64,000 nucleotides of DNA from Promethearchaeota archaeon (GTDB lineage Archaea; Asgardarchaeota; Lokiarchaeia; Sigyniarchaeales; SOKP01), in the NCBI GenBank assembly GCA_019057795.1, contig JAHLWS010000011.1, positions 1-64,000 on the forward strand, written 5' to 3'. Below are positions 5,405 to 48,591 of the stretch, in pieces. Below the pieces are notes generated by a model. It searched no databases. It was not told the DNA's origin and saw only the letters and a list, made by a program, of their open reading frames with translations. Each line of letters starts with the position of its first letter. Within the stretch, counting starts at the first letter, position 1. The position numbers were made by a program, and so were the translations under genes.

Positions 5405-5627
5405 TTAAATTTACACCAATTTAAGAATACTAATTGAACAAAAATTGGATTTAGGTTATTTAAATAAAATCAGATTTTTAATATTCCCTTCAATCTTATT
5501 AATAATCTTAAAGTTAGTAATAAGTTTTAAAAACTTAGATCGTAGCCCCTTCAGCTATTTTATTAGATGTATTTAGAAATAGAAAAGCTTATTCAAATTC
5601 TGTTCTTACAAAATTATTTTAATGAGA

Positions 5628-7016
5628 TTAAGAATATTTTTTCGTTAGTGAGTTAGTCAACTCTCTTAATTTTTTAGAAATTTTTAATTTAAAAACATGA
5701 TTTTCATCTAATGTTTTGTATTCGTCTGGTAATTTTTTAATATTCTTCAGATAGTACTGTTGAATTTCCATTAATTGGGGTATCTTGCTAATTAAGATTC
5801 CTTTTTCCATCATTGGAATTAATAGAGCCTCTGAATTCGGTGGCGCATCGTCGTCGTCTAACATTAAAATGTCTTCTTTGAATACTCCTTGCTCGTTATA
5901 AATCCTGTAAATTTGTTTCTTTCCGGGGTAAGTTAATTTTTCTTCGCTTATTTTAATTTTAGGTCGACCATTATATTCTATTAGCTTGTACACGCCTGCA
6001 ATAGTTGGATCGTCCCTAGATGTTGTTAATTCGGTTCCCACGCCAAATGCATCAATAGGAGTGTTGTTATCAATAATTTGTTTAATCTTATACTCGTTTA
6101 AATCAGAACTTGCAACGATTATAACTTCTTTACAACCATTTTCGTCTAAAATCTTGCGAACTTTTTTTGCGTGCTCAATGAGATCACCTGAGTCTATTCT
6201 TACCCCTTTTATGTTGTTCTCGTATTTACACGCGGTTTTTGCTGCTTTTTCGGTGTCGTAAGTATCAATTAAAAGTATTGAGTTCTTCCCATAAATTTTG
6301 TAATATAAATCGAAACTCTCTTTCTCATCATCAAATCGTTGGACAAAACTGTGAGCCATTGTTCCGCTAGATTTAATATCCAACTCGAGGTCGGCAACCA
6401 CGTTACTCGTACCGTTAAAACCTGCTATATAGCTAGCTCTTGCCGCGTAAACACCTGCGAGAGGACTGTGAGATCTTCTAGTACCGAATTCAAGAAGAAC
6501 CTTATCTTGAGCAACAGTTTTTATTCGAGACGCTTTAGAGGCCACAATAGTTTGGTAATTAATGATATTCAACAAATATGTTTCTGCTAATTGAGCGTGG
6601 AACATAGGCCCTTGAACTTTCATAATGGGCTCTTGGGGGAAGAAAAAATTCCCTTCTTTCATTGCCCACACATCTAATTTAAACTTGAAGTTAGGCAAAT
6701 AATCGTCAAAAAAGCTGGAATCGATGTTTTTAAAAACTTCTTTTTGTCTCAAGAAATTAATTGTCTTTTCAGTAAATCTGGCGTTTTTTAAGTAATAAAT
6801 CGCTTGTTCTAAACCGGCGAAAATTAAGTAATTGCGATTTTTAGGATATTTTCTAATAAAAAGATCAAAAACTGCGATATCGTTTTCATCATTTCTACTA
6901 TTCTCTAAATTATCTTGATAATAAGCTGCCCCCATAGTTAATTGATAAAAGTCTGTAGCAAGGACCAAGTTAATATCGTTTATAAAACCAGATTTTGGCT
7001 CTCTCATTATTTTCAT
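5628..7016 (-). CDS. pncB: Nicotinate phosphoribosyltransferase
   Basis: TDFYQLTM, EFGTRR, GTMAHS, LIDTYD, RIDSGD, FGVGT, YKL motifs. Confidence 0.95.
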   Translation of the reverse strand: MKIMREPKSGFINDINLVLATDFYQLTMGAAYYQDNLENSRNDENDIAVFDLFIRKYPKNRNYLIFAGLEQAIYYLKNARFTEKTINFLRQKEVFKNIDSSFFDDYLPNFKFKLDVWAMKEGNFFFPQEPIMKVQGPMFHAQLAETYLLNIINYQTIVASKASRIKTVAQDKVLLEFGTRRSHSPLAGVYAARASYIAGFNGTSNVVADLELDIKSSGTMAHSFVQRFDDEKESFDLYYKIYGKNSILLIDTYDTEKAAKTACKYENNIKGVRIDSGDLIEHAKKVRKILDENGCKEVIIVASSDLNEYKIKQIIDNNTPIDAFGVGTELTTSRDDPTIAGVYKLIEYNGRPKIKISEEKLTYPGKKQIYRIYNEQGVFKEDILMLDDDDAPPNSEALLIPMMEKGILISKIPQLMEIQQYYLKNIKKLPDEYKTLDENHVFKLKISKKLRELTNSLTKKYS

Positions 7017-7022
7017 CTTAAA

Positions 7023-7988
7023 TTAAATTTTTGAAAGTTTGGTAACTCTTTTCAAAATTAAACCCCAAAAATTATCTTTTTTTACGCCGCCACTGCATGT
7101 TATTTTATCTCCGACCTTAAATTCAACCTTCTCGTAAGCATTATCGCTGACCCTTATTTTTAACTCATTGACCTTAATAGTATCCTCTTCGTGATAATCC
7201 TTAGTTTTCTTTAATTGAGGTCCAATTTTCACATCTTTTAGAGAAACTATATAGTAAATAGTTACATTACCTTGAAAATCAGATTCTCTTTCCAAAATTT
7301 CAGTAATCTCCCCTTTATAAACTGTGATTCTACTGTTGAGATATTTCAACAACGAATAATCGGCTGAACTTTCGTCAACCATGCTTAAAGCTTTTCCTGA
7401 CCCCTTAGTTTTATCTCCGGAAGTTGTTGTCGTAGAAATTTTTATCGTTACGATTTTTTTTTCGAAATCTTTTGGTAAGACAGTTAATTTCCAATCTGAT
7501 AATTTAAAATAATTTTCTTTGAGCGAAAAGATTAAACCGACCCAAAAGTGACTACAAAGCCCCATATTTGAGCCTATTCTACAATCGCAGTCGCGTTCAG
7601 GGTCGCCAATATTTTCTGGCGTTATAGATAAATAGGATGAAACCTCCCAGTTAAAGCCCTTGAATAACAATTCGATTTCGTGGTTTTTTTCATTAACTAT
7701 CTTTATAGCATTTATTGTTTCGCGATAGTTACCATTTATTATTTTGATTGCTATCTGAATTTCGTTCGAAATAATTTCTAACTCTTTTTGCTCCACTAAT
7801 TCTTTAAGTTCTTCTTCTGCTAACGAATCAAGTATGAAACCAACTAGCTCTGTTTTTTTGAGTTTTGAATACCCTTTTAATTCAAAATCCCTGCACATTT
7901 GCTTCAAGTCGTTAACGTTTAAAGATTGAAGTAAATAATTCAAATAAATTTTATCGTCTAATTTTTTGCTCAAAATTTTCCTACTCAA
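7023..7988 (-). CDS. SAP/Rho-N-like + SWIM zinc finger + OB-fold-like protein
   Basis: N-terminal LKQMCRDFELKGYSKLKKTELV helix-extension-helix; CDC-x8-CSH SWIM motif; beta-rich C-terminus with VGDKITCSG. Confidence 0.6.
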   Translation of the reverse strand: MSRKILSKKLDDKIYLNYLLQSLNVNDLKQMCRDFELKGYSKLKKTELVGFILDSLAEEELKELVEQKELEIISNEIQIAIKIINGNYRETINAIKIVNEKNHEIELLFKGFNWEVSSYLSITPENIGDPERDCDCRIGSNMGLCSHFWVGLIFSLKENYFKLSDWKLTVLPKDFEKKIVTIKISTTTTSGDKTKGSGKALSMVDESSADYSLLKYLNSRITVYKGEITEILERESDFQGNVTIYYIVSLKDVKIGPQLKKTKDYHEEDTIKVNELKIRVSDNAYEKVEFKVGDKITCSGGVKKDNFWGLILKRVTKLSKI

Positions 7989-8022
7989 TTTATTATTAGT
8001 TATTTCTATGTTGTCTGATTAA

Positions 8023-8143
8023 TTTTAATTTCCCTTTATTTATAAATTCCTAAAAATATCTCTATTTTATCTGTAAATTTACAGCCTCTCATTGCTGTAA
8101 AATTCAATAGAATAAAAATTAATTTCATGAAGGGAAATTAAAA
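8023..8143. repeat. Nested inverted repeats forming a long imperfect hairpin
   Basis: TTTTAATTTCCCTT (8023-8036) pairs with AAGGGAAATTAAAA (8130-8143); TCTATT pairs with AATAGA; TTTACAGC (8078-8085) pairs with GCTGTAAA (8094-8101); palindrome CTGTAAATTTACAG at 8071-8084. Confidence 0.55.
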
Positions 8144-8560
8144 ATAACATGTTATCTTTCAATAAATCATATTTTCTTATTTAATTGTGATTATCTAAAT
8201 ACTATTATTACTTAGTTTTTAGCTTAAATTAATGAAAAAAGAACATTTAATTAAATTAATATTTAATATTGATTGATGAAATATAAAAAACTATCTTTAT
8301 CCCAAAATTTCATTTCCAGTTTAGAAAAAGAGGAATTATTAAAATTATTTTTATTATCGAAAAAAGAAAAACTAATTATCAAATTCTTTAATTGATTACT
8401 GATTTCTTACAGAGATCAAAAACGAAAAAGTGGGAAAACTTTCGGAAAATAAGTTTTTCATAACTTTACGCTTAGGAATACAACCATAACATTTAAAAAT
8501 AAACATATCCATTAATGATCTAATCAAGTTTTATTTGTATAGAAAAGTATTTAATTAAAA

Positions 8561-8782
8561 GTGATAGTAAAAATGAGTGATAGTACACCAGAATATTTGA
8601 AATTCTTTGGTGAAATTAAATTCGCAGAAGAGAAAAGTTTAAGCGCAAGCGATTTTGAAAGCTCTCTTAAGAGTTATTTTTCGAAAGAGAAAAGACTTCC
8701 ACAAGGGCGCTATAAATTTGCTGAACTTAACAATTCTAGTATTAAGGATTTCGAAGATTCCTTCTATAGTTATTTTGAATAA
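8561..8782 (+). CDS. Small hypothetical protein (likely ATG start at 8573); may be a remnant
   Basis: Coding-like composition in an otherwise very AT-rich gap. Confidence 0.45.
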   Translation: MIVKMSDSTPEYLKFFGEIKFAEEKSLSASDFESSLKSYFSKEKRLPQGRYKFAELNNSSIKDFEDSFYSYFE

Positions 8783-8841
8783 AGAATTAAAGATTTTTTT
8801 TAAAATTCTCTTTATATTTTAATTTTTATTTATATTCTCAT

Positions 8842-9075
8842 TTATTTCATCATTTGATACTCGTTATCAAAAACCTTATTTACTAATTGGCAGCCCCTAT
8901 TATCGTTATTTTCAGAACTAAACAAACAACGAGTTTTAATATCCCCTTTTTTGTTAGAGTATTTCATACAACCCCAACACTGACCCTTTGCGAGGCTAAA
9001 CTTTTTTTTGCGGTTACGTTCTCTTATTAATTCACAGATTTCTAAAGCTATATCTTCGGGAATAATTTCTTTCAT
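8842..9075 (-). CDS. Small Cys-rich hypothetical protein
   Basis: C, CWGC, C, C pattern; AGGTGA Shine-Dalgarno motif upstream. Confidence 0.65.
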   Translation of the reverse strand: MKEIIPEDIALEICELIRERNRKKKFSLAKGQCWGCMKYSNKKGDIKTRCLFSSENNDNRGCQLVNKVFDNEYQMMK

Positions 9076-9257
9076 TAATTATTTCACCTATTTTAACTTG
9101 ATTTGTTAAAGTATTATTTAAGACTAAATAAAAATTCATTAGTCTGAAAATTGTGTATAATAATTGTAATTTTAAATATAAGGCTTTAATTTATAATCAA
9201 AGAAAATCAATTGAAATTAAAGTACTTGTTAAAAGATAATTATTTTGGTCAAATATT

Positions 9258-10103
9258 ATGGAATTATTTAGTATTGGCGAGGAGAATTTCGTCGAAACGA
9301 ACGGTGTAAAACTCCATACAGTTATAATCGGGGAAGGTGAGCCTTTAATCTTGCTTCACGGATTTCCAGATTTTTGGTTTGGTTGGAAAAACGTAATTCT
9401 TGGGCTCAAAAAGGATTATAGGCTAATTATCCCTGATATGCGCGGCTATAACTTATCTGACAAACCTGAAGGCGTTAATAATTATAAAATGGAAGTTTTA
9501 GTTGAGGATATTAAAGGATTAATTGAGACTTTAAACTTAGGTGGCGTTTTTCTTGCAGGACACGATTGGGGCGGCGTAGTAGCGTGGGCATTCGCTGAAA
9601 AATATCCGAAATTATTACGAAAGTTAGCAATTTTAAATGCTCCTCACATGAAGATATTCCAAGAAAGGTTGCGTTCAGATAAAAAACAACAAAAAGCTAG
9701 TTTTTACATCTTTGAATTTCTTAAACCCGATGGAGAAAAATTTCTTTTTAAGGACGATTTTAAGTGGTTAAAATTCGCCGTTTTTGAAGGGTTGATAAAT
9801 AAAAAAGGTTTTACTGATTTTGACAAGAAAAAATATTTAGAAGCGTGGGCAAAACCAGGCGCAATTTTAGGAGGGGTGAATTATTACAGAGCTAACGTAA
9901 GTTTTAGCGATTGGACAGGGAAAATAACAGTCCCCACTTTAGTCATCCATGGAATGAAAGATATAGCCGTGTTACCGTCGGTCTTGGATGGACTACCTGA
10001 TTATGTAGCCAACCTAAAAATTGTCCGTGCTGAAAATTCTTCACATTGGGTTATGCACGATGAGCCCGAGTTAATTATTTCATCATTTAAAGAATTTTTC
10101 TAA
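9258..10103 (+). CDS. Alpha/beta hydrolase, epoxide hydrolase-like
   Basis: HGFP oxyanion motif, PDMRGYN, GHDWGG nucleophile, NYYR, C-terminal SHW. Confidence 0.9.
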   Translation: MELFSIGEENFVETNGVKLHTVIIGEGEPLILLHGFPDFWFGWKNVILGLKKDYRLIIPDMRGYNLSDKPEGVNNYKMEVLVEDIKGLIETLNLGGVFLAGHDWGGVVAWAFAEKYPKLLRKLAILNAPHMKIFQERLRSDKKQQKASFYIFEFLKPDGEKFLFKDDFKWLKFAVFEGLINKKGFTDFDKKKYLEAWAKPGAILGGVNYYRANVSFSDWTGKITVPTLVIHGMKDIAVLPSVLDGLPDYVANLKIVRAENSSHWVMHDEPELIISSFKEFF

Positions 10104-39371: not shown

Positions 39372-39440
39372 ATGAAAAAAGTAGCTATTATTGGAGTTGG
39401 AATTACTCCTTTTAAAGCAATAGTACTTTTTTGCTATTAA
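39372..39440 (+). pseudogene. Orphan 5' end of a thiolase gene (diverged duplicate of 42856-42900)
   Basis: MKKVAIIGVGITPFKA(IVLFCY*) versus KKVAILGVGITPFRA; differences mostly synonymous. Confidence 0.85.
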
Positions 39441-42737: not shown

Positions 42738-42849
42738 AGCCTAAACCTCCTTTTTGTAAAAATTATTAAATAATATAACTTATCTAATAGCAATTATAAA
42801 TAGCAAATTACGATTAAGAAAAAATTTTAAAAAATATTGGTGAAAAAAA

Positions 42850-44139
42850 ATTAAGAAAAAAGTAGCAATACTAGGTGTTGGTATAACTCCTTTTCGAGCG
42901 CGTTATTTGGATAAAACCTATTTCGAGCTTGCTTATGACGCGACTAAGCTCGCTTTGGAAGACGCAAACAAAAATGGGGCTGAAATAACTCATAAGGATT
43001 TAGAGTCTACTGTTTACGGTATTTACAACGAATTATTCGAACGACAATTCATGCCGGACATTTTTATAAACTCGTATATAGGAATGAACAACAAACCAGG
43101 AACTCGAATCGCTTCGGGGGGCGCTACGGGAGGATATACCGTGAGAATGGCCTACGCGGAAGTTGCTTCAGGTCTATCAGATCTATGCCTTTGCCTTGGC
43201 GTAGAGAAATGCAACGATTGCTATGACGAAAAAACGGGTACGACAACACCAGAGGTTTTGAATGCCATCGCTTATTCTGCTGATATGACTTATGAGTATC
43301 CAATGGGCATGATGGCAGCATCTTCATATGTTAGCATGGTAAATGCACACTTTGAAGAATTCGGTAATCCAACTGAAGATCAAATGGCATATGTTAGCAT
43401 GAAAAATCACGGAAATGCTATGTTAAACCCAATAGCACAATCCCCTATGAAGATATCTCTTGATGATGTCCTCTTCTCCAGAATAATATGTCATCCCTTT
43501 AAATTGTTAGATTGTTGTCTTTATTCAGAAGCTTCGGCAGCTTTAATATTAGCAAGCGAAGAAAAAGTAAAAGAACTTAAAATTGAGAAGCCAATTTGGA
43601 TAACTGGCGTAGGTGCTGCGAATACAGATTGTTTTATCGGTAACCGGGAAGAAATAGGACGGTTATATTCTAATATTTACGCAGCAAAGGCAGCTTATAA
43701 AATGGCGGGATTGGATTATAATAAGATCAAAGAGCAAATAGATTTGGCTGAGCTTCACGATGCCTTCTCTGGACATTACTTGTCATAAAGACAATTTGCC
43801 AGTCAAGAAGTCATTAGCTATGAAGAACTCGGTTTTGTATCTTTTGGAGAAGGAGGTCCATGGATTGAAAAATCATTTGAAAAACCTGGAGAAGGACCTT
43901 GGTTAGATGGAGAACTCCCGTGTTGTCCTTCAGGTGGATTGATAGGTTGTGGACATGCTGTTGGTGCTACGGGAATTATGAGCACTGGAGAGGCTACTCT
44001 TCAATTAAGAGGGGAAGCAGGTAAACATCAAGTAACTATTGAAAAAGGACGAGCTATATCTCATTCTATTGGAGGTCCTGGTGCCGCCTATGCTGCGGTA
44101 ATAGTAATGACAAACGAGGAGGGGTTGAAAAAACCATGA
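42850..44139 (+). CDS. SCP2/Ltp-type thiolase-fold protein, split by a 30-nt BHB intron (predicted 419 aa after splicing)
   Basis: ORFs 42907-43788 and 43939-44139 are one reading frame with a single TAA (43786-43788); N-terminal KKVAILGVGITPF, GVEK, NP.AQ, HDAF, PSGG..GCGHAVGATG; start is ATT at 42850 after a GGTGA SD motif (or GTG 42840 with a 1-nt slip). Confidence 0.85.
43775..43804 (+). other. Putative bulge-helix-bulge (tRNA-type) intron in mRNA
   Basis: CTTCT(43764-68) pairs with AGAAG(43806-10); CTGG(43769-72) pairs with CCAG(43799-802); bulges ACA(43773-75) and TCA(43803-05); inner hairpin TTGTC-ATAAA-GACAA; excision gives GGA CAA GAA (G-Q-E) and removes the stop. Confidence 0.85.
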
Positions 44140-44636
44140 GCGAAGAATTTCGATCACATGAAATTAGGGATAAAATTCTAATAGAATATAAGTATACTAT
44201 GGGCGGGCAATCAAAATTCTTCATAGAATTAATGAATAATAAGAAGATATTAGGAACCAAATGCAAGAAGTGTGGTAAAGTATGGATGCCTCCAAGAATT
44301 AACTGCTCAGAGTGCTATGAAGATACCGATTGGATTGAGCTCCTCCATGCTGGTACGATTCAAATCAGCACGATAGTGTGGTATGGGGCCGCTGAATTTA
44401 TTCAAAATGTCCCCTATGGTTGTGCATTTATTAAATTAGATGAAGCAGATACATCATTGTTTCAAGGTGTATTTTCAGAAAATTTAGTCCCTTCAAAAAT
44501 TAAAAAAGGTCAAAGGGTTAAAGCAGTGTTTAAAAAGAGGGAGGACCGAGAAGGGAGAATGACAGATTTTTTCTTTGTTCCCGAAGATGAGTGGGAAAGA
44601 TGGATTAATAAACCAGAATTTGAAGGTGGTGAGTAA
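44136..44636 (+). CDS. DUF35 (zinc ribbon + OB-fold) thiolase partner protein
   Basis: GTKCKKCGKVWMPPRINCSEC; IKLDEAD; ATGA overlap with the thiolase stop codon. Confidence 0.9.
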   Translation: MSEEFRSHEIRDKILIEYKYTMGGQSKFFIELMNNKKILGTKCKKCGKVWMPPRINCSECYEDTDWIELLHAGTIQISTIVWYGAAEFIQNVPYGCAFIKLDEADTSLFQGVFSENLVPSKIKKGQRVKAVFKKREDREGRMTDFFFVPEDEWERWINKPEFEGGE

Positions 44637-44638
44637 AA

Positions 44639-45010
44639 TTGGGTATTGCAAGTGAAAGTTTAAGTAAAATTGTTGAAAATATGAGCGGGAACGCAAAAGT
44701 TGAGGCTGTTTTTGTTACTAATATTAGTGGCAAAGAAGTTGATTGGGATATGATTTTCCAATTTAACTTGGATAACGAGGATTCTTTTTATCTTAAGGTA
44801 AAAGGAAGAAAGGCTGAACTGATTAATGGAACCGCTTCAGATCCTAACATAATTATGACGGGAGATAATAACGCAATTGTAAAAATCTGCAATGGTAAGG
44901 GAGATTTCACTCATGCGATTAGTAGAGAACAAATAAAAGTTACAAAAGGAAAAATTATTGACGTAATACGCCTAACTCGAGCAATAACCCTTGTTTTGAA
45001 AACTAAATAA
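44639..45010 (+). CDS. SCP2 sterol-carrier domain protein
   Basis: FQFNL..FYL.V......G...P.I.M......I..G......A.....KV..G pattern; in a thiolase-DUF35 operon. Confidence 0.8.
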   Translation: MGIASESLSKIVENMSGNAKVEAVFVTNISGKEVDWDMIFQFNLDNEDSFYLKVKGRKAELINGTASDPNIIMTGDNNAIVKICNGKGDFTHAISREQIKVTKGKIIDVIRLTRAITLVLKTK

Positions 45011-48466: not shown

Positions 48467-48591
48467 GGAAAGGTGATTTCCTCATGCGATTAGTAGAGAA
48501 GAAATAAAAGTAACAAAAGGAAAAATCATTGATGTAATACTCCTAACACGAGCAATAACCCTTGTTTTGAAAACTAAATAATTTTTTTTTT
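48467..48591 (+). repeat. Direct repeat copy 2: orphan diverged 3' end of an SCP2 gene
   Basis: Encodes HAISREEIKVTKGKIIDVILLTRAITLVLKTK* versus HAISREQIKVTKGKIIDVIRLTRAITLVLKTK*; a 1-nt deletion and several synonymous changes. Confidence 0.9.

What the first reader, a model, noticed from the sequence alone, without database searches (positions are those of the whole stretch)
43759..43815. Bulge-helix-bulge (tRNA-type) intron in a protein-coding thiolase mRNA of a probable Asgard archaeon
Seen: the thiolase frame reads ...DLAELHDAFSG-HYLS*RQFAS-QEVISYEELGF..., a 10-codon insertion containing the gene's only internal stop. The two thiolase paralogues in this window (DVAEIYEPTSWSELSWTEALGF; DVCEVSENFSTHELMIYEALGL) align without gaps to DLAELHDAFSGQEVISYEELGF only if exactly 30 nt are removed. 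The insert boundaries form a BHB: exon-exon helix CUUCU/AGAAG (extendable by GAUG/CAUU after one mismatch), 4-bp central helix CUGG/CCAG, 3-nt bulges ACA and UCA on opposite strands, and an intron hairpin UUGUC-AUAAA-GACAA. The intron-side helix next to the first bulge is imperfect. Established: archaeal splicing endonuclease (EndA) cuts each BHB bulge after its second nucleotide and RtcB ligates the exons. Applied here (C43774|A, C43804|A), this removes 30 nt and gives in-frame GGA CAA GAA. The best-known archaeal mRNA intron of this type is in crenarchaeal cbf5, and eukaryotic HAC1/XBP1 splicing uses related ligation chemistry. Inference: this lipid-catabolic enzyme needs mRNA splicing to be expressed, because the unspliced product lacks the GH catalytic loop. 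That could be a regulatory switch and points to overlooked mRNA introns in relatives of the eukaryotic host lineage. Caveat: the gene's start codon is also irregular, so it may not be expressed.
Basis: partly seen in the sequence, partly recalled or inferred. Interest (0 to 1): 0.95.

Follow-up and report, generated by a model that had tools for sequence, protein, structure and literature searches.

The report
tRNA-type mini-intron in Asgard protein gene
A 30-base insert carrying a stop codon splits a conserved thiolase-like gene of a Lokiarchaeia (Asgard) archaeon; it has the shape that the archaeal tRNA-splicing enzyme cuts and evolves like an intron that must be removed from the mRNA, something published for only one other archaeal coding sequence (cbf5).

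Summary
Window 43775-43804 is a 30-nt insert with an in-frame TAA in a thiolase-fold gene (42850-44139). It sits in a bulge-helix-bulge (BHB) fold, and the canonical cuts restore frame and the conserved junction.

Comparison argues strongly for an RNA-spliced intron and against a pseudogene:
- Fifteen orthologues of 19 compared lack exactly these 30 nt.
- Twelve distinct intron-bearing sequences, from MAGs and independent metagenomes, keep every helix base.
- Synonymous sites in the exon arms are frozen only where the intron is present.
- The spliced genes evolve at dN/dS 0.03-0.10.
- The intron is far more conserved than four-fold sites.
- Orthologues carry 28-35-nt inserts at seven further positions, most obeying the same cut rule, and one shows compensatory pair changes.
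- The genome encodes two EndA subunits and RtcB.

Not shown: splicing at the RNA level, because no RNA contig bridged the site. The 5' splice site is a relaxed BHB. The gene's start is irregular in this genome. The protein lacks the thiolase nucleophile cysteine, so "lipid-catabolic thiolase" and "regulatory switch" remain guesses.

This scan has reported the same kind of intron on other Asgard DNA. In the papers I could search, only cbf5 has a confirmed coding-sequence intron of this type.

The parts
42839..42852 (+). Start region: GGTGA Shine-Dalgarno-like box (42839-43), GTG (42840-42) out of frame by one, run of seven A (42843-49), and ATT (42850-52) at the aligned start position
   Evidence: The G004 orthologue has six A, so its GTG is in frame. 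An X5 contig matches 42800-42982 with no differences.
42850..43774 (+). Exon 1 of the thiolase-fold gene (308 codons plus one base)
43759..43768 (+). 5' strand of the outer exon-exon helix h (43764-68, plus extension 43759-62)
   Evidence: paired in 12 of 12 distinct sequences
43769..43772 (+). 5' strand of the 4-bp central helix H (exon 1)
43773..43775 (+). 5' bulge; predicted cut between 43774 and 43775
   Evidence: The minimum-energy fold shows it relaxed, as a 1-nt bulge here and as an internal loop in the variants.
43775..43804 (+). 30-nt intron with in-frame TAA at 43786-88 and hairpin 43780-84 / 43790-94 (loop 43785-89)
   Evidence: It is absent, exactly, from 15 orthologues of 19 compared and unique in the genome.
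43799..43802 (+). 3' strand of the central helix H (intron)
43803..43805 (+). 3' bulge; predicted cut between 43804 and 43805
43806..43815 (+). 3' strand of the outer helix h (43806-10, plus extension 43812-15)
43805..44139 (+). Exon 2, including the stop codon
   Evidence: The spliced ORF is 419 aa, the same length as in intron-less orthologues.
44136..44636 (+). Downstream DUF35 / ChsH2-like zinc-ribbon and OB-fold gene, overlapping the thiolase stop
44639..45010 (+). Downstream SCP2-domain gene

Best explanation
Window 43775-43804 is an archaeal endonuclease-type (BHB) intron inside a coding sequence.

Proposed mechanism: the pre-mRNA pairs exon 1 with exon 2 (outer helix) and exon 1 with the 3' end of the intron (4-bp central helix). 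This exposes two bulges four base pairs apart. The heteromeric splicing endonuclease EndA cuts after the second base of each bulge, and RtcB joins the exons. The result is an intact 419-codon frame (junction GGA CAA) that is co-transcribed with the DUF35 and SCP2 genes.

Shown: the motif, the exact intron-less orthologues, selection on frame, intron and pairing exon bases, sister introns, and presence of the enzymes.

Inferred: that cleavage and ligation happen in the cell, and that EndA and RtcB are the agents.
For: 1. Exact presence/absence. Of 19 same-genus orthologues, 4 carry the insert and 15 lack exactly 30 nt, reading Ser-Gly-Gln-Glu across the site.

2. The cut rule gives the right junction. 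In the G004 copy only the canonical cut, or its one-base slide, gives a sense codon. The alignment-based deletion gives a stop.

3. Intact frames under selection. After removal every intron-bearing orthologue has an intact 412-419-aa ORF. dN/dS between intron-bearing genes is 0.03-0.10, like intron-less pairs at 0.03-0.04.

4. The intron is conserved. It is 30/30 identical in three species whose four-fold sites are 69-76% identical, and 27/30 against G004, where four-fold sites are 43-50% identical. P is 1e-4 to 4e-6.

5. Helices are frozen. In 12 distinct intron-bearing sequences, eight metagenome matches among them (two on one contig), all 18 modelled pairs hold in every sequence. Only 5 of 57 BHB columns vary against 39 of 98 flanking columns (P = 1.9e-5). 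The four variable intron sites are all unpaired. Third-codon positions in the exon arms vary at 1 of 9 against 28 of 33 in the flanks (P = 8.5e-5). The exon-arm third positions that could be read in intron-less orthologues (8 of 9) all vary, several among three or four bases.

6. Sister introns. Eighty-five orthologues carry 28-35-nt inserts at eight positions, 21 distinct instances. The canonical BHB rule regenerates a junction peptide matching the intron-less reference in at least 8 of 11 residues in 16 of 21 (identical in most). A mirror-image control motif gives deviating junction residues wherever it passes the same test (9 of 21). One sister intron has four compensatory pairs, with 96.6% of cells paired against 24-46% in slid controls.

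7. Patchy distribution. On the gene tree at least 2-3 gains or precise losses are needed.

8. Duplication. A tandemly duplicated operon keeps the intron in both copies.

9. Enzymes. The genome has two EndA paralogues of 200 and 201 aa, which match the C-terminal and N-terminal halves of a fused EndA model, plus one RtcB. Asgard (alpha-beta)2 EndA carries the loop linked to broad substrate range (PMC5829648).

10. tRNA genes. Aragorn finds only 29 tRNA genes, 16 of them with introns.
Against: - The helix next to the 5' bulge is weak. Minimum-energy folds give a 1-nt bulge (this genome) or a 7x4 internal loop (variants), so the 5' site is a relaxed bulge-helix-loop form, not a strict BHB.
- The helices of this intron never vary, so it offers no covariation of its own.
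- This genome's copy has an out-of-frame GTG and no canonical start before codon 20. By my arithmetic on the pairwise counts, its own branch has a higher dN/dS (about 0.18) than its sisters (0.04-0.12). This particular copy may be weakly expressed or starting to decay.
- A genome-wide motif scan showed no excess of BHB over a mirror-image control among ORF-fusing deletions.
- My homology census found only this intron and one or two weak candidates in this genome. A genome-wide mRNA-splicing load is therefore not shown here by my own tests.
Confidence: 0.83

Rival explanations
1. The gene is a pseudogene. A 30-nt hairpin insertion with a stop inactivated it, and nothing removes the insert.
For: There is an in-frame TAA. 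This genome's copy has an irregular start. Its own branch has a somewhat raised dN/dS (my arithmetic).
Against: dN/dS is 0.03-0.10 across lineages that inherited the insert, and every frame is intact after removal. The insert is conserved far above synonymous sites. Exon bases that pair with it are frozen only in carriers. One orthologue carries four such inserts and still yields an intact 419-aa frame. Both copies of a duplicated operon keep it.
Confidence: 0.05
2. The insert is removed or skipped by a route other than EndA plus RtcB, for example another nuclease-ligase pair or ribosomal bypassing of the 30 nt.
For: No enzyme assay or RNA data were available. The 5' site is not a strict BHB.
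Against: The canonical EndA cut rule predicts the junction here and in 16 of 21 sister instances. For bypassing, matching take-off and landing codons flanking the gap are expected (my knowledge of T4 gene 60); none is present, and the stop lies four codons into the insert. Sister inserts of 28, 29, 31 and 35 nt shift the frame, which fits excision at fixed structural points.
Confidence: 0.08
3. The stop is read through or recoded, and the ten extra residues are part of the protein.
For: The insert length is a multiple of three.
Against: Fifteen orthologues of 19 and both window paralogues lack the ten residues. TAA ends ordinary genes here, for example at 42735-37. Sister inserts are not multiples of three. 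The conservation pattern follows RNA pairing, not codons.
Confidence: 0.02
4. The insert is an assembly or sequencing artefact.
For: None found.
Against: The insert is present in four independent MAGs, eight contigs from independent metagenomes and a contig of run X5 from another study that spans it.
Confidence: 0.01

Closest known systems
BHB intron in the cbf5 pre-mRNA of Crenarchaeota (Watanabe 2002; Yokobori 2009, PMC2738675)
   Same: A short endonuclease-type intron inside a coding sequence. It must be removed to give the protein. It is patchy among relatives, with lineage-specific precise loss. The hosts have hetero-oligomeric EndA.
   Different: The host here is a Lokiarchaeia (Asgard) archaeon and the gene is a metabolic thiolase-fold gene. 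The same gene family carries eight intron positions, with up to four in one gene. cbf5 itself is uninterrupted in this genome. Splicing of cbf5 was shown experimentally; this intron's splicing was not.
Non-canonical tRNA introns of archaea, including the heavily interrupted tRNA genes of Asgard archaea (PMC5829648; preprint 10.64898/2026.10.13.758758)
   Same: The same motif grammar (h, B, H, B, h' and relaxed forms), a comparable size, the same presumed enzymes, and repeated gain and loss.
   Different: The substrate is an mRNA. [quoted passage not shown] That preprint does not mention mRNA.
EndA-processed intron in the 5' UTR of Haloferax volcanii HVO_1309 (PMC7714728)
   Same: A BHB site in an mRNA, cut by the tRNA splicing endonuclease.
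   Different: That intron is 46 nt and lies in an untranslated leader, so it does not interrupt a reading frame. Its cleavage was verified in vitro and as a circular RNA.
HAC1 / XBP1 unconventional mRNA splicing in eukaryotes (my own knowledge; RtcB link cited in the reference list of PMC5829648)
   Same: A very short intron in a coding region, removed by an endonuclease and a tRNA-type ligase without a spliceosome. Removal changes what is translated.
   Different: The nuclease is Ire1, which recognises twin stem-loops, not EndA on a BHB. That splicing is stress-regulated. No regulation is shown here.

Membership tests
Archaeal endonuclease-type (BHB) intron | [quoted passage not shown] | tested here: met
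   The central helix 43769-72 / 43799-802 is flanked by 43773-75 and 43803-05. A mirror-image geometry does not fit.
Archaeal endonuclease-type (BHB) intron | Strict hBHBh' form: stable helices on both outer sides of the bulges | tested here: not met
   The outer helix h is 5 bp, plus 4 more after a mismatch. The inner helix h' beside the 5' bulge is only a U-G pair followed by mismatches. Minimum-energy folds show a 1-nt bulge or an internal loop, which is a relaxed hBH / bulge-helix-loop form.
Archaeal endonuclease-type (BHB) intron | Cuts after the second base of each bulge give the functional product | tested here: met
   This removes 30 nt and gives the junction found in 15 intron-less orthologues. 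In G004 only this register avoids a stop.
Archaeal endonuclease-type (BHB) intron | The host encodes a splicing endonuclease able to cut relaxed motifs, and an RtcB ligase | tested here: met
   Two EndA paralogues match complementary halves of a fused EndA model, and one RtcB is present. The broad specificity of Asgard (alpha-beta)2 EndA is taken from PMC5829648 and was not tested.
Archaeal endonuclease-type (BHB) intron | The structure is maintained by selection | tested here: met
   All 18 pairs hold in 12 of 12 distinct sequences. Variation is confined to unpaired sites, and synonymous sites in the exon arms are frozen only in carriers. The helices are invariant, so this intron shows no covariation. 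A sister intron shows four compensatory pairs.
Archaeal endonuclease-type (BHB) intron | The spliced RNA and the excised (often circular) intron exist in the cell | not testable with these tools
   No RNA contig bridged the site. Raw metatranscriptome reads or RT-PCR are needed.
Thiolase (acetyl-CoA C-acyltransferase) family | Thiolase N- and C-terminal domains | tested here: met
   Pfam Thiolase_C_1 at 1.9e-20 and Thiolase_N at 4.8e-5 (below its cut-off). NCBIfam matches to 'thiolase domain-containing protein' are below their cut-offs. The best solved relatives are archaeal acetoacetyl-CoA thiolases at 1e-43.
Thiolase (acetyl-CoA C-acyltransferase) family | Nucleophilic cysteine in the N-terminal domain | tested here: not met
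   In the phmmer alignments of the intron-less G008 orthologue (L004) to 7YVY and 6ESQ, the cysteine of the 'ACASG' segment aligns with glycine. The window protein has the same residues there. I did not confirm from a paper that this is the catalytic residue.

The most novel reading that the evidence does not exclude
Lokiarchaeia harbour a living population of about 30-nt endonuclease-type introns that enter and leave ordinary protein-coding genes. This one gene family has eight positions, up to four per gene, with repeated precise gain or loss. Expression of such genes would then depend on tRNA-splicing enzymes acting on mRNA, and the introns would impose RNA-structure constraints on codons. 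That would be a protein-gene intron-exon architecture, independent of the spliceosome, in the archaeal lineage closest to eukaryotes.
Probability: 0.55. Interest if true: 0.9.

Novelty: new variant of a known kind. Interest (0 to 1): 0.8.

Why it matters
In the papers I could search, archaeal splicing inside a coding sequence is documented for one gene only, cbf5 of Crenarchaeota. A 2020 paper states this explicitly (PMC7714728).

Here a metabolic gene of an Asgard archaeon, and its orthologues in dozens of MAGs, carry tRNA-type mini-introns at eight positions. They show clear signs of selection for removal. If this is confirmed at the RNA level:
- Gene callers mis-annotate such genes as pseudogenes or split ORFs.
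- EndA and RtcB act as an mRNA-splicing system in relatives of the eukaryotic ancestor.
- Intron gain and loss, and intron-imposed constraints on codons, become directly testable in prokaryotes.

Tried and rejected
RNA evidence. I laid contigs of one metatranscriptome (X20), one doubtful RNA run (X19) and two runs of unknown type. X20 contigs of a 90-95% similar relative cover 43591-43731 and 43855-44125, but none covers 43732-43854. This says nothing either way. An exact search for the spliced junction in JGI metagenome contigs found nothing, while the unspliced form was found in eight contigs. That collection is mostly DNA, so this is also uninformative about splicing.

Genome-wide motif scan of G000. 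I looked for BHB-flanked deletions that fuse two long open frames, against a mirror-image motif. True and mirror counts were equal, for example 405 against 423. Adjacent genes swamp the signal, so the scan was abandoned as a detector.

Motif-free census. I ran tblastn with ORFs from 780 kb of a congener (G008) and 800 kb of a same-order genome (G032) against G000, and the reverse for G008. It recovered this intron, one 31-nt candidate (C78:170203-170217) and one doubtful 33-nt candidate (C49:24232-24264). The sample is too small for a genome-wide count.

Leads from earlier notes:
- uL11 on C73 is interrupted twice, as claimed, but the canonical rule removes 26-27 nt where 28 are needed (and my reading).
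- The hppA HMM match has no stop inside a 738-aa open frame, so that note is neither confirmed nor refuted.

Other checks:
- Rfam has no family at the site.
- There are no flanking direct repeats beyond two bases.
- The intron is not a repeat in the genome.
- I considered a frameshift as the explanation of the start-codon problem. It is a difference in homopolymer length (A7 against A6), reproduced in a second study's contig.

Full report
**What is there.** The window is contig C11 of a 4.95-Mb, 87-contig genome. From 42850 to 44139 on the plus strand lies a thiolase-fold gene with Pfam Thiolase_N and Thiolase_C_1 domains. NCBIfam calls it a 'thiolase domain-containing protein', below cut-off. 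A DUF35/ChsH2-like gene (44136-44636) and an SCP2 gene (44639-45010) follow it. The frame is broken once, by ten extra codons holding a TAA at 43786-88. Two paralogues in the window and an intron-less orthologue align across this point with a single ten-residue gap.

**The RNA motif.** I derived the canonical geometry from the known tRNA case. In that case each bulge lies 3' of its strand of the 4-bp central helix, and the cut falls after the second bulge base.

The sequence fits this geometry:
- outer helix 43764-68 with 43806-10, extendable to 43759-62 with 43812-15
- central helix 43769-72 with 43799-802
- bulges 43773-75 and 43803-05
- an intron hairpin of 5 bp

The cuts remove 43775-43804 and give GGA CAA GAA.

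RNAfold gives -16.7 kcal/mol, z = -2.84. It reproduces the outer helix, the central helix and the 3' bulge. At the 5' site it prefers a 1-nt bulge plus two pairs. In the variants of other genomes it gives a 7x4 internal loop. The 5' site is therefore a relaxed, bulge-helix-loop-like form. Such forms are reported to need the (alpha-beta)2 or epsilon2 endonucleases, and Asgard archaea have the (alpha-beta)2 type with the specificity loop (PMC5829648).

A motif of this strength at a fixed 30-nt spacing occurs at 3.8e-5 of positions in this genome.

**Orthologues.** Among 40 related genomes, the 19 best orthologues were aligned. Four carry the insert (G000, G005, G020, G004) and fifteen lack exactly 30 nt. 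A scan of species-representative genomes gave 80 more loci, nearly all labelled Promethearchaeota or Promethearchaeia, which confirms an Asgard (Lokiarchaeia) origin. A pattern search found the intron in eight further metagenome contigs. One of them holds a tandemly duplicated thiolase-DUF35-SCP2 operon with the intron in both copies.

**Selection.** After the BHB-defined removal, all intron-bearing genes give intact frames of 412-419 codons. dN/dS between intron-bearing genes is 0.03-0.10, the same range as intron-less pairs.

The intron is identical in three species whose four-fold sites are only 69-76% identical. It differs at 3 of 30 sites from G004, where four-fold sites are 43-50% identical (P 1e-4 to 4e-6).

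In 12 distinct intron-bearing sequences:
- All 18 modelled pairs hold in every sequence.
- Only 5 of 57 columns of the BHB region vary, against 39 of 98 flanking columns (P = 1.9e-5).
- The four variable intron sites (43778, 43779, 43797, 43804) are all unpaired.
- Third-codon positions inside the exon arms vary at 1 of 9, against 28 of 33 in the flanks (P = 8.5e-5).
- The exon-arm third positions that could be read in intron-less orthologues (8 of 9) all vary, several among three or four bases.

This last contrast is the strongest single argument. Codons are constrained by RNA pairing only where the intron is present.

**Sister introns.** The same gene carries 28-35-nt inserts at seven other positions in other genomes, 21 distinct instances in all, with up to four in one gene in G004. 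The canonical rule regenerates a junction peptide matching the intron-less reference in at least 8 of 11 residues in 16 of 21 instances, identical in most of them. A mirror-image control passes the same test in 9 of 21, always with deviating junction residues. The other five instances have three of four central pairs or odd bulges.

One sister intron, with four sequences, shows four compensatory pairs and 96.6% of cells paired, against 24-46% in slid controls. Several sister introns are not multiples of three, so read-through cannot explain them.

On a gene tree the present intron needs at least two to three gains or precise losses. The closest intron-less relative, G009, also differs at three synonymous sites right at the junction. 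This could mean replacement by an intron-less allele, but that is speculation.

**Machinery.** The genome has two EndA paralogues of 200 and 201 aa. One matches the C-terminal half and the other the N-terminal half of a fused EndA model, as expected for a catalytic and a structural subunit. It also has one RtcB. Aragorn finds only 29 tRNA genes, 16 with introns. That fits the heavily interrupted tRNA genes described for Asgard archaea (preprint 10.64898/2026.10.13.758758). cbf5 is uninterrupted here.

**What is not shown.** I obtained no RNA-level evidence. My own genome-wide tests did not establish how many other mRNA introns this genome has. First-stage notes of this scan list many candidates in this genome, and follow-up reports describe the same phenomenon in other Asgard genomes. 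Those are unchecked leads. Of the two I looked at, one fitted the canonical rule poorly and one could not be confirmed.

This genome's copy has an out-of-frame GTG (seven A against six in G004) and ATT at the aligned start. By my arithmetic on the counts, its own branch has a dN/dS of about 0.18. Expression of this particular copy is therefore uncertain.

In alignments of the intron-less orthologue L004 to solved archaeal thiolases, glycine stands where they have the cysteine of the 'ACASG' segment, and the window protein has the same residues there. The protein may thus be a thiolase-fold aldolase or scaffold rather than a thiolase.

**Comparison and verdict.** The thing works like the cbf5 pre-mRNA intron and like non-canonical tRNA introns. 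It passes the tests for a relaxed BHB intron and fails only the strict hBHBh' form. In the literature I could search, the only coding-sequence intron of this type confirmed in archaea is cbf5 (PMC2738675, PMC7714728).

I rate it a new variant of a known kind: a new host lineage, a new kind of host gene, many positions in one gene family, and a measurable imprint on codon usage. My confidence that it is spliced at the RNA level by EndA and RtcB is about 0.83.

Noticed in passing
window 42839-42852: The GTG behind the GGTGA box is out of frame because the A run has seven A. The G004 orthologue has six and an in-frame GTG. ATT stands at the aligned start codon, and most orthologues have ATG or TTG there. 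The A7 run is reproduced in a contig of another study.
   Followed up: partly
window about 43105-43131: Glycine stands where solved archaeal thiolases (7YVY, 6ESQ) have the cysteine of their 'ACASG' segment. This was read from alignments of the intron-less orthologue L004; the window protein has the same residues there. The strongly conserved protein may therefore not be a true thiolase. An Ltp2-like aldolase or a scaffold working with the DUF35 partner are possibilities.
   Followed up: partly
L014 (G004:C318) 868-925, 1089-1145, 1449-1603, and an insert between the first two: The G004 orthologue carries four mini-introns of 30, 30, 29 and 30 nt. It still gives an intact 419-aa frame after BHB-rule removal.
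   Followed up: yes
L131, about 5 nt upstream of the position of the present intron: A different 30-nt intron with a 9-bp hairpin sits inside the Ser codon, two codons before the site of the present intron. This short stretch of the gene has been colonised twice by unrelated intron sequences.
   Followed up: partly
L190 (Ga0315553_10000021), reverse strand 5474-9971: The whole thiolase-DUF35-SCP2 operon is tandemly duplicated, and each thiolase carries a variant of the intron. First-stage notes report orphan ends of a second operon copy in this window (39372-39419 and 48467-48591), which may be remnants of such a duplication.
   Followed up: partly
G000:C78:170203-170217 (+): A congener's uninterrupted ORF aligns here with 31 extra nt in G000 and a frame change. 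A BHB-type candidate of exactly 31 nt (central helix 4 bp, h 3 bp, h' 2 bp) joins the two frames.
   Followed up: partly
For the second insert the canonical cut rule removes 26-27 nt where the frame needs 28, so the cut positions or the helix length differ from the textbook case.
   Followed up: partly
whole genome G000: Aragorn finds only 29 tRNA genes in a genome scored 100% complete, and 16 of them have introns. Many tRNA genes are probably too interrupted to be recognised.
   Followed up: no
L109 (DATKTP010000175.1) and L175 (DAOVMD010000455.1): Two contigs with clear orthologues of this Asgard gene, one with the intron, are filed under bacterial MAG names (Deferrimicrobium, Mcinerneyibacteriota). 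These are probably binning errors.
   Followed up: no
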